Below are positions 14,644-36,669 of a stretch of DNA of 41,619 nt, one piece after another. The notes beneath the pieces are model-generated. The model was given only the letters and a program-made list of their open reading frames with translations, did not search any database and was not told where the DNA came from. The stretch spans positions 1 through 41,619 of the forward strand of contig NW_021835229.1 in the NCBI RefSeq assembly GCF_006345805.1. The letters are read 5' to 3'. The position numbers and the translations under genes are program-made. The stretch is from Octopus sinensis (taxonomy: Eukaryota). Within the stretch, counting starts at the first letter, position 1, and every line of letters begins with the position of its first letter.

Positions 14644-14706
14644 ATCCACTGATGAGAACTTAGACTAAATTAAATTAGTCAGAGTTCAAAATCACGTGAT
14701 ATGGAT
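14644..14706 (+). ncRNA. Type I hammerhead ribozyme motif with a G12A lesion
   Basis: ATCCA-CTGATGA-GAACT[GACTAA/TTAGTC]AGTTC-aAAA-TCACGTGA-TA-TGGAT; stems I, II and III all pair. Confidence 0.7.
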
Positions 14707-33196: not shown

Positions 33197-33601
33197 GGAT
33201 CTTTTCGGTTTGAACGGCAGTTTTTTCTAGCGGTGTCATATGAAATTGTCACCCATAATTATGACCCTACTATCGATCTATTGCATTTCAATCTGTTTTA
33301 GGGTTAGGGTTAGTTAGGGTTAGGGTTAGGGGTGGTGGAAAGGGTATTTTTTTTCTTCAGAAATGTAAATAAACCCAATCTGTTTCTTAAACGAGGGACA
33401 TATTCATACGGCACAGAATGTTTTCACCTCAATAGACATCATTGATTGGTTAAAATTGCAGAAATTGAAGAAGAAAAACAACAAATATTTTACAAGAGAA
33501 AAAGATGTTTTATAAACACATTCTACCAGTATACGAAGTTTAAAAGTGTTTAGTTACGTGGAAATTATTTTAAAAAACTGCCGTTCAAACCGAAAAGATC
33601 C
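33197..33601. mobile_element. Merlin-like MITE, close relative of 31009-31433
   Basis: TIR GGATCTTTTCGGTTTGAACGGCAGTTTTTT; 8-bp TSD CACTTATG (33189-33196, 33602-33609); internal TTAGGG array. Confidence 0.9.
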
Positions 33602-34093
33602 CACTTATGTTGTCTGTCCTTGTACAGTCCTCTCTGTTGTTCGGGTCTTTGTGCCTAATAAAGAAATAGTAGTTGACGGTGTTAGTTCGACTGTGTACGT
33701 TAACCGTCTTAGTTCGACGTGTGTTAATTTAACAGTCAGTAGTTATATAGTGAAATACTGAATATCGTTTTTACGTTCAGATAGTACGGAGTGCGTTCTG
33801 TGTTAATATATATTATTCTGCAATAGGTTATTTTTAGATAAACGCAACCAACTATTTATTTGTGTAATACCCACTTGTGTCGTATATGTCCCCAATACAA
33901 CACCATAACAACCCATCATATATACACGACATGCTCTTCGTAATTTTCAAGATTTTGCTCAGCTAGAAGAGAAGAAGAGATTGAGATTATCGGTGCTATA
34001 ATGACATCGTATTGCTATACATACGTGTATACATACATATATATATATAATATATATAATATATATATAATATATTATATATATATATATATA

Positions 34094-34126
<33 letters not shown>

Positions 34127-34140
34127 TATATATAAATGAA

Positions 34141-34672
34141 ACGACGAATTAACGACGAATTACAATATTCCTTTATTTTCGACATATGTTTCGAAGGCTG
34201 CATATTCCTAATTTCGAAGGAATAAGGGGTGCATTATGCCGCCTTTCATCAAGAAAAACAAGGAACTTATGTCAGCATCAAGATGCACAAAAACGTTTAG
34301 ATGACTGCCCACACGGAGCCCATAGCGATAATGTGTGGGCAGTCATCTAAAAGTTTTTGTGCATCTTGATGCTGACATAAGTTCCTTGTTTTTCCTGATG
34401 AGAAGGCGGCATAATGCACCCCTTTTTCCTACAAAATTAGGAATATACAGCCTTCAAAACATATGTCGAAAATAAAGGAATTTTGTTAATTCGTCGTTCA
34501 ACTCCATTCTTTCATTTATTTGTATTTAAAAAAACACACAAATTTCCACACGATAGCACGTGATCTCTGCCCTAGGCATGTAGCTTCAACCGTGTTTTTC
34601 TGACGTGAATTTGCTACCTAGGTATCGGTTAACCGAATTATCCATAATAAGATAATTCATTCAACTACTCAA
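34141..34672. mobile_element. (TA)n-embedded palindromic Penelope-like element with two hammerhead motifs
   Basis: Arms 34151-34314 and 34333-34498 with an 18-nt spacer; hammerhead motifs at 34176-34257 (-) and 34390-34472 (+). Confidence 0.75.
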
Positions 34673-34729
<57 letters not shown>

Positions 34730-34879
34730 TCTATATATATATATATATGTTGTTGTATTTGGGAATGGTCATGTAACATGTCTATCCTAATTAGAACATA
34801 TCTGTGTTTTCAACACGGTTTCACATCAAGAATCTTGTTGCAAAATGAATGAACTATATAAACGTATATATATATATAT

Positions 34880-35281: not shown

Positions 35282-36669
35282 CATACATACATACATACAG
35301 AGAGGAAGAGATGAAGAGAGCAGAGAGAGGGTGGAGAGAAATAGTAGAGACAGAGACAGAGAGAGCGTCATCGTTGAACACAAAAAATAGCTGTACAATG
35401 TCTGTATAGCAGCGATAACCTCAATCTCTTCTGCTCTTCCAGCAAAGCAAAATCTTGAAAATTACGAAGAGCGTGTCGTGTATATAATGATGGGTTGTTA
35501 TGGTGTTGTATTGGGGACATATACGATACAAGTGGGGATTGTAATTTGTGAAGTGGTGTACATAATGCTCTTTGAAACAGATGCGTGGAAAATGATCGGC
35601 TGCAATAGTGGATGTTATGTGCATCTATATAGTTTTTCATGTCTGAATGATTGTGTGCACGTCTGTCCGAGATTGCGTCTGTGTGAGTCGGTGAGTGTGT
35701 GTGTGTGTGTGGTGTGTGTGTGTGGTGTGTGCGTGTGTGTGTGTACGTGTGTATGTACGTGTGTGTGTGTGTGTCTGTGTGTATGTCAGTGGATGTGAGC
35801 AAACACACATTAACGTAGGTGCCATTCAAATTGACTGTGCAAAAGAGCATATACACGTAATTACGTCTTGTGCAGGCCTTTTAGTGTATATATACATAGA
35901 CAGATACGCACAAACACGTGCAGACACACACATATGCACACCACACACACACACACAACACACATACAGACATACACAGACACACACACATATATGCATA
36001 TACTTTCATACAGATTTATGTATGTGCATTTGTATGTTTGCTTATATATATATATATATGTGCCTCTGTGGTGTGTGTGTGTGTGTGTGTGCCTGTCTGT
36101 GTGTATGCATACATGAATACATGTGTGTGTGCATGTGTGTGTATGCATGAATGTATGTATATATATCATAAACCTTGGTGAATGTATTTATGCGCGTGTA
36201 TAAGTACGCGTTTGTGGTTTGTGTGTATGTGTGTGTGCATGTGTGTGCGTATGTGTGTCTGTCTGTTTGTGTGTGTGTGTGTGTGTGTGGTGTGTGTGGT
36301 GTGTGTGTGTGTGTGTTCAACGTCAGTCTAATTGACTGCGTCACGTGTCAGCAATAACAAATCACCGTTGAGAATTGCGGTCTCGTGAGAATGACATGGC
36401 GACCAGAAATGCGCTGCGAGACGTCTGACAAGCAAAGAAAGCGGATAACTGAGACGCTTTGTTCGCTAAGAAACGTAACAGCGGACAGTGACGATGAGAG
36501 AGGTGATGGGGAAAGGAAGATGGCCCCAGCCGTAGTGAATCAGACAGTTAAATAATGCCAGTATTCATTCTAAACTGCAGCAGTTAGAGTGTTCTGCGTT
36601 CATACTCTTCGGGTATTTCTTGTTGTGATCTGGTTTGTGATCTGGTTTGCATTTTGTCATCTCTGTCTG

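What the first reader, a model, noticed from the sequence alone, without database searches (positions are those of the whole stretch)
34151..34498. ~350-bp palindrome carrying back-to-back hammerhead ribozymes with an expanded, branched stem II
Seen: ~165-bp inverted arms. The right arm reads TTTTC-CTGATGA-GAAGGC[~42-nt insert containing the hairpin TTCCTA/TAGGAA]GCCTTC-aAAA-CATATG-TC-GAAAA. The left arm (minus strand) keeps GAAA but has TTGATGA and lacks G10.1. The two-arm consensus is a complete type I hammerhead with a palindromic stem III and a GUC site. Known: Penelope-like elements carry type I hammerheads in their pseudo-LTRs, often acting as dimers, and form inverted pLTR arrangements. 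Inference: a short non-coding, (TA)n-associated, ribozyme-bearing retroposon family that may be uncatalogued.
Basis: partly seen in the sequence, partly recalled or inferred. Interest (0 to 1): 0.75.

Follow-up and report, generated by a model that had tools for sequence, protein, structure and literature searches.

The report
Back-to-back Penelope retrotransposon ends
This palindrome is two short ends of an abundant protein-coding jumping gene joined head-to-head, each with a mutated and likely crippled self-cutting RNA motif; the arrangement is routine, but the parent family has an unusually long ribozyme stem and lacks the zinc-finger linker thought to aim such elements at TA repeats, where it still sits.

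Summary
The palindrome and both hammerhead motifs are real, but this is not a non-coding retroposon family. 34131-34676 is two short end copies of a Penelope-like element (PLE) joined head-to-head at 34333 inside (TA)n; only the right copy carries a 153-nt tail. Long relatives encode one ~900-aa ORF: telomerase-like RT plus C-terminal GIY-YIG nuclease with Hydra-clade motifs. The motif occurs 8,122 times in the genome; 38 of the first 100 listed places lie in such divergent pairs. This layout is published for PLEs, and this scan found it before on other DNA. The ribozymes lie on opposite strands, so they cannot dimerise in cis; both are damaged (G12A; C3U plus lost G10.1). Stem II is a long unbranched helix with compensatory changes, not a branched one. 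Not found in my searches: this 12-bp stem II with a further hairpin, a 153-nt tail, and loss of the CxCX5C linker in 20 of 20 copies while 64 of 66 ends still abut TA-rich repeats. Verdict: new variant of a known kind, modest interest.

The parts
34028..34134 (.). (TA)n-rich microsatellite, left side of the target
34131..34333 (-). Inverted short end copy of the element, ending at the short 3' end (no tail); small local duplication near its outer end
34176..34257 (-). Left hammerhead motif; C3 changed to U and G10.1 deleted; GUC site 34183-34181
34333..34333 (.). Head-to-head junction of the two 5' ends (1 shared base; 5 with one mismatch)
34333..34523 (+). Direct short end copy of the element up to the short 3' end
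34390..34472 (+). Right hammerhead motif; G12 changed to A at 34456; long stem II 34402-34455; palindromic stem III 34459-34466; predicted cut after 34467
34524..34676 (+). 153-nt one-sided tail; in the tandem relative L058 the matching segment ends about 43 nt before the ORF start
34674..34748 (.). (TA)n microsatellite, right side of the target

Best explanation
The palindrome is a single insertion made of two short end copies of an endonuclease-bearing Penelope-like retrotransposon, joined head-to-head in a TA repeat, and it was likely built by the element's RT-nuclease priming once from each nicked target strand. Shown: identity of the arms with the element's end, the linked ORF in long relatives, the two fixed 3' ends about 155 nt apart, the one-sided tail. 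Inferred (about 0.6): the protein nicks both strands of (TA)n, starts reverse transcription at two internal RNA sites (one gives the short end, the other the tailed end), each copy runs to or near the 5' end of the RNA leader, and the two 5' ends are joined. Inferred (about 0.6): in intact elements the hammerhead cuts the element RNA as a dimer through its 8-nt palindromic stem III, perhaps helped by the element's protein; the long stem II is a conserved part of it. In this locus both ribozymes are passengers and likely crippled.
For: Arms match the family end at 92-96% against L070. Long copies carry RT then GIY-YIG in one frame of up to 923 aa; the AlphaFold model (mean pLDDT 79.4) has telomerase RTs as its first 4 Foldseek hits, best E 6.5e-9. 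L058 shows inverted copy + pLTR + ORF + pLTR, unit 3,678 bp, the layout described in PMC8557442 and PMC3846280 (passages). Among the first 100 listed motif places, 19 neighbours lie within 5 kb and all 19 are divergent. Of 15 divergent pairs with both motifs seen, 13 have one short and one tailed end, 1 has two short ends, 1 was unclassified, 0 have two tails; an anole PLE protein nicks and extends both strands and starts at two internal RNA sites that bound the tail (PMC11167929, parts 1-2 read). 64 of 66 ends abut TA-rich repeats against 13% background. Structure: 90.5% of 545 cells paired, 43 cells with two-sided change against 19.9 +/- 3.4 shuffled; stem II has 7 of 12 pairs with two-sided change; the centre of the stem III palindrome is UA 13, UG 5, CG 4, always self-complementary; two copies of L083 co-fold through that palindrome with the core-proximal part of stem II kept. 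G12A slows a hammerhead about 10^6-fold (PMC2553840 passages).
Against: Pfam found no family in two full ORFs and GIY-YIG only at E 0.011, below cut-off; no relevant PDB sequence match; Foldseek TM-scores are low (0.26 of the query). Two of the five structure measures were not above shuffles (pairs with two-sided change 145/500; pair types 310/500), the shuffles ignore relatedness and the 22 rows come from few subfamilies. RNAalifold recovered only stem II, and none of 7 monomer folds gave the three-way junction. The distance windows for 'short' and 'tailed' ends were chosen after looking at the data. PMC3846280 reads such head-to-head junctions as self-priming on an antisense template instead. 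No cleavage or expression was shown.
Confidence: 0.85

Rival explanations
1. A short non-coding ribozyme retroposon (retrozyme-like) that copies itself as a 350-bp palindrome using a PLE protein in trans.
For: Most copies seen are short, and 7 of 31 unselected copies start 56-96 nt upstream of the core, with only 1 of 31 between 140 and 420 nt. Animal retrozymes are argued to derive from PLE pLTRs (bioRxiv 10.64898/2026.07.22.740005, part 1 of 5 read).
Against: Junction positions and spacing differ from pair to pair (105 to 4,604 nt between motif starts); 17 of 31 copies run on 420 nt or more upstream (one of them on a weak alignment); the same end follows the ORF; retrozymes are defined as tandem direct repeats, and none of the 19 close neighbours is same-strand.
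Confidence: 0.07
2. Same element, but the inverted arm arose by self-priming or fold-back of one cDNA or an antisense template, not by priming from both target strands.
For: Proposed for rotifer PLEs from junction palindromes (PMC3846280 passages).
Against: Both arms keep one of the two normal 3' ends and 13 of 15 pairs have one of each; the junction here shares only 1 base.
Confidence: 0.3
3. Assembly artefact (fold-back chimera).
For: No contig in 4 public runs was listed as bridging this junction, which proves nothing for a repeat.
Against: The arms differ at 19 of 193 columns with separate changes from the family, only one has the tail, and the pattern recurs across the genome.
Confidence: 0.02

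Closest known systems
Hydra clade of C-terminal EN+ Penelope-like elements, incl. Hydra-1_Obim (Octopus bimaculoides) and Penelope-13_HM (Craig et al. 2021, PMC8557442; section 11, passages and supplement parts 2 and 58 read)
   Same: RT then GIY-YIG; DKT; RW after the N-terminal helix; no CCHH; CxxC and CxH around the conserved E and N; (TA)n target; type I hammerhead near the 3' end; Penelope-13_HM also has an inverted 5'-truncated copy with the hammerhead on both strands.
   Different: No CxCX5C linker (0 of 20 copies, against 9 of 9 Hydra rows shown in the text of Fig. S7); 122-160-aa Asn/Ser-rich linker instead; RWL or RWL-like rather than RWK; unit about 3.7 kb against under 3 kb; stem II about 12 bp plus an inner hairpin (54-55 nt between core halves) against 3-7 bp and a short loop in the listed Hydra hammerheads; by eye a different family from Hydra-1_Obim in both protein and ribozyme.
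PLE minimal hammerheads (Cervera and de la Pena 2014, PMC4209133; parts 1-2 of 4 read)
   Same: Type I, short stem I, palindromic stem III suited to a dimer, mostly solo copies from truncated PLEs, and opposite-strand pairs 100-700 bp apart are mentioned.
   Different: Helix II there is 6-8 bp; here about 12 bp plus a 30-nt apical part, which falls outside a short-loop descriptor.
Inverted pLTR with one-sided tail (PMC3846280 passages; PMC11167929 parts 1-2)
   Same: Head-to-head inverted pLTR, tail on one arm, two RT start sites; Asn-rich inserts between RT and EN are also described in rotifer Penelope.
   Different: Tail is 153 nt here against 30-40 bp, and lies before the ORF start rather than inside the ORF.
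Metazoan non-LTR retrozymes (part 1 of 5; PMC7229834 seen only in the search listing)
   Same: Type I hammerhead in a short non-coding repeat.
   Different: Those are tandem direct arrays without an ORF; this is the end of a coding element in inverted pairs.

Membership tests
EN+ Penelope-like elements | Single ORF with telomerase-like RT | tested here: met
   ORFs to 923 aa; first 4 Foldseek hits are TERTs; Pfam silent
EN+ Penelope-like elements | GIY-YIG endonuclease in the same ORF | tested here: met
   Aligns with the EN of homologs and of published Hydra rows; Pfam GIY-YIG only E 0.011, below cut-off; not searched by fold on its own
EN+ Penelope-like elements | pLTRs, partial tandem, inverted 5' copy, one-sided tail | tested here: met
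   L058 layout; 13 of 15 pairs one-sided
EN+ Penelope-like elements | Hammerhead in the pLTR | tested here: met
Hydra clade | C-terminal EN without CCHH; CxxC and CxH beside conserved E and N | tested here: met
   No CCHH; CxxC in 18 of 20, CxH in 19 of 20
Hydra clade | DKT motif and RWK motif | tested here: inconclusive
   DKT present; RWL where Hydra has RWK
Hydra clade | CxCX5C zinc-finger linker before the EN | tested here: not met
   0 of 20 copies against 72 of 76 scored homologs and 9 of 9 published rows
Hydra clade | Insertion into (TA)n | tested here: met
   64 of 66 ends, background 13%
Hydra clade | RT phylogeny inside Hydra | tested here: inconclusive
   Tree of 8 family rows and 37 unnamed or auto-named homologs holds no published Hydra sequence and no outgroup
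Type I hammerhead ribozyme | CUGANGA and GAAA core, stems I-III, UH site | tested here: met
   Family: 33 of 38 copies with intact core, pairing. The two window copies each fail the core (G12A; C3U and lost G10.1)
Type I hammerhead ribozyme | Self-cleavage after UH | not testable with these tools
   Only contigs were on offer
Non-LTR retrozyme | Tandem direct units, no ORF | tested here: not met
   0 of 19 close neighbours same-strand; ORF linked

The most novel reading that the evidence does not exclude
A prolific Hydra-like Penelope lineage has replaced the zinc-finger linker with a disordered Asn/Ser spacer and still targets (TA)n, so the linker is not what aims these elements at microsatellites; its long, covarying ribozyme stem II is a conserved extra domain, possibly the handle by which the element's own protein switches the ribozyme on. 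Thousands of copies with two fixed 3' ends make both points directly testable.
Probability: 0.35. Interest if true: 0.5.

Novelty: new variant of a known kind. Interest (0 to 1): 0.3.

Why it matters
The locus itself is ordinary PLE debris. The family matters modestly: PMC8557442 ties the Cys linker to (TA)n targeting and calls the role of PLE hammerheads unclear. A lineage with at least 8,122 motif copies, intact ~900-aa frames, no Cys linker, two RT start ends 155 nt apart and a long stem II offers a natural test of both. It also shows that short-loop hammerhead descriptors and Rfam miss an abundant class.

Tried and rejected
Rfam on the whole window: no hammerhead among the rows shown; the MIR172 hits at 34263-34384 are below the gathering score and reflect the palindrome. 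Pfam and PDB sequence searches of full ORFs: nothing useful. Sequencing runs: no RNA holder listed; contigs of 4 DNA or unlabelled runs cover the arms and tail but no listed piece bridges the junction; 4 runs guessed to be RNA hold family pieces, but RNA status is a guess and contigs show no ends, so neither expression nor cleavage was tested. Naiad clade rejected: the EN is C-terminal. Literature searches: octopus + hammerhead ribozyme, octopus + Penelope + transposable elements, PLE + microsatellite + zinc finger + linker + GIY-YIG (0 papers), Penelope + twin priming + inverted, type I hammerhead / long stem II / retrotransposon: none of the listings or passages read described this family, but the library lacks most subscription papers, Repbase and Dfam. 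A 2017 paper on dimeric PLE hammerheads (recalled) was not held. The word 'octopus' was my guess from genome size and repeat content; no tool named the host. The look-up of earlier findings by sequence gave one unrelated hit.

Full report
Observation. The window holds inverted arms with 174 of 193 columns identical. The right arm has the hammerhead core at 34395, a 54-nt stem II region, AAAA in place of GAAA, CATATG, the GUC site at 34465-67 and a 5-bp stem I. The left arm on the minus strand has U at position 3 and lacks G10.1. Rfam listed no hammerhead among the 150 of 157 rows shown.

Family. The right arm found 2,214 candidates in the window's genome; 40 were scored and gave 51 matches, most at 94-97%. 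A pattern drawn from the family alignment matched 8,122 places, with 0 for the reversed control.

Parent element. Walking upstream in loci L012, L019 and L032 gave an RT and then a GIY-YIG-type nuclease on the same strand. A search with the RT gave 11,988 candidates, 150 scored, with open frames up to 923 aa. Twenty of these were fetched; 19 showed the hammerhead pattern downstream of the ORF (L073 did not match). L058 is inverted copy, pLTR, ORF, pLTR with a 3,678-bp unit. An AlphaFold model of its 902-aa protein from a 79-row alignment (mean pLDDT 79.4) has telomerase RTs as the first four Foldseek hits. Pfam and PDB sequence searches missed the RT and gave GIY-YIG only below cut-off. The motifs match the Hydra clade as described and aligned in PMC8557442: DKT, no CCHH, CxxC and CxH around E and N, (TA)n. 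By eye it is a different family from Hydra-1_Obim. In a quick tree of 8 family rows and 37 of the first 40 homologs (P0007, P0032, P0033 left out), the family is one branch (support 100) next to four homologs, one named from Argonauta hians; no published Hydra sequence or outgroup was in the tree.

What the locus is. Against L070 the left copy covers the element end on the minus strand to 34333 and the right copy starts at 34333; the 18-nt spacer is the left copy's extra 5' sequence. The right copy continues with a 153-nt tail to 34676; the left stops at the short end. Both sides are (TA)n, so a target duplication cannot be read. Among the first 100 listed motif places, 19 neighbours lie within 5 kb and all are divergent. 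Of 66 copies, 41 end at the short end and 23 at the tailed end next to TA-rich repeats, 2 were unclassified; background 13%; the distance windows were set after looking. Of 15 pairs with both motifs seen, 13 have one end of each kind, 1 two short ends, 1 unclassified (L003, which has the tail). This is the published PLE pattern of an inverted pLTR with a one-sided tail (PMC8557442; PMC3846280), and Cervera and de la Pena mention opposite-strand hammerhead pairs 100-700 bp apart.

Mechanism. In vitro an anole PLE protein nicks and extends both target strands and starts reverse transcription at two internal RNA sites that bound the tail; ribozyme cleavage needs the protein and is not needed for insertion (PMC11167929). 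The simplest reading here, inferred, is one cDNA from each strand, one from each start site, joined at their 5' ends. In 31 unselected copies, 7 start 56-96 nt upstream of the core, 1 between 140 and 420, and 17 at 420 or more (one on a weak alignment); the window's copies start 62 and 81 nt upstream. This hints at a preferred RNA 5' end, a lead taken from earlier notes of this scan. Since these copies run through the whole ribozyme, their template was not cut there, or was re-joined (inference). Self-priming on an antisense template is the published rival.

Ribozyme. On 22 distinct copies the structure pairs in 90.5% of 545 cells with 43 two-sided changes against 19.9 shuffled, and falls to 33-51% when slid; but two of five measures were not above shuffles and relatedness is not controlled. 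Stem II is about 12 bp with 7 pairs changing on both sides, then an internal loop and a hairpin whose 4-bp core is 93% paired without two-sided change. RNAalifold found only stem II and no monomer fold gave the junction, as expected where stem III needs a dimer: the 8-nt palindrome keeps a self-complementary centre (UA 13, UG 5, CG 4) and two L083 copies co-fold through it. Such palindromes are known (PMC4209133; PMC3088659 passage). In this locus the motifs are on opposite strands, a transcript is predicted to be one long hairpin, G12A costs about 10^6-fold (PMC2553840), and C3U with loss of G10.1 is expected to be damaging (inference; not measured in what I read).

What differs from the known. 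The Cys linker is absent in 20 of 20 copies, replaced by 122-160 aa with 0-1 Cys and 31-52% Asn+Ser, predicted disordered (residues 633-760). It is present in 72 of 76 homologs that the script could score, of 120, in the two closest homologs by eye and in 9 of 9 published Hydra rows shown. PMC8557442 links this linker to (TA)n targeting, yet this family keeps that target. Plain AT preference of the nuclease could explain this. Asn-rich inserts as such are known in rotifer Penelope. The tail is 153 nt against 30-40 bp. Listed Hydra hammerheads have a stem II of 3-7 bp. Because one defining Hydra feature fails, I file it as a Penelope-like element of a Hydra-like lineage, not as a Hydra member.

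Verdict. Real, explained, mostly known; this scan has reported the same kind of pair in other genomes. New variant of a known kind; interest 0.3. Whether the family is already in a repeat library could not be checked; no tool named the host.

Noticed in passing
window 33866-34018 and 35387-35540: A 153-bp sequence in inverted orientation on both sides of the insertion, 90% identical, found at only these two places in the genome; probably a local inverted duplication, unexplained.
   Followed up: partly
window 14644-14705 (+): Another hammerhead-like motif of a different family: CUGAUGA, long stem II, AAAA in place of GAAA, palindromic CACGUG stem III, 5-bp stem I.
   Followed up: no
window 22254 (-) and 37906 (+): Two more hammerhead-like cores with 6-bp stem II, the first with a changed core, probably remnants of other Penelope families.
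   Followed up: no
L032 1637-5156 and 5092-8611: A 3.5-kb tandem duplication at 99% identity that includes the element, its TA run and some flank; segmental or assembly duplication rather than a PLE tandem.
   Followed up: no
L007 and L010 flanks: Frames that look like a GIY-YIG nuclease with Cys-rich motifs of another PLE type lie next to these insertions; family label is my recall, not tested.
   Followed up: no
family proteins, residues about 488-557 of the L058 model: A second disordered insert between the RT thumb region and the WFxxPF block, absent from most homologs.
   Followed up: no
window 33298-33331: Short interstitial TTAGGG array about 800 bp left of the insertion.
   Followed up: no
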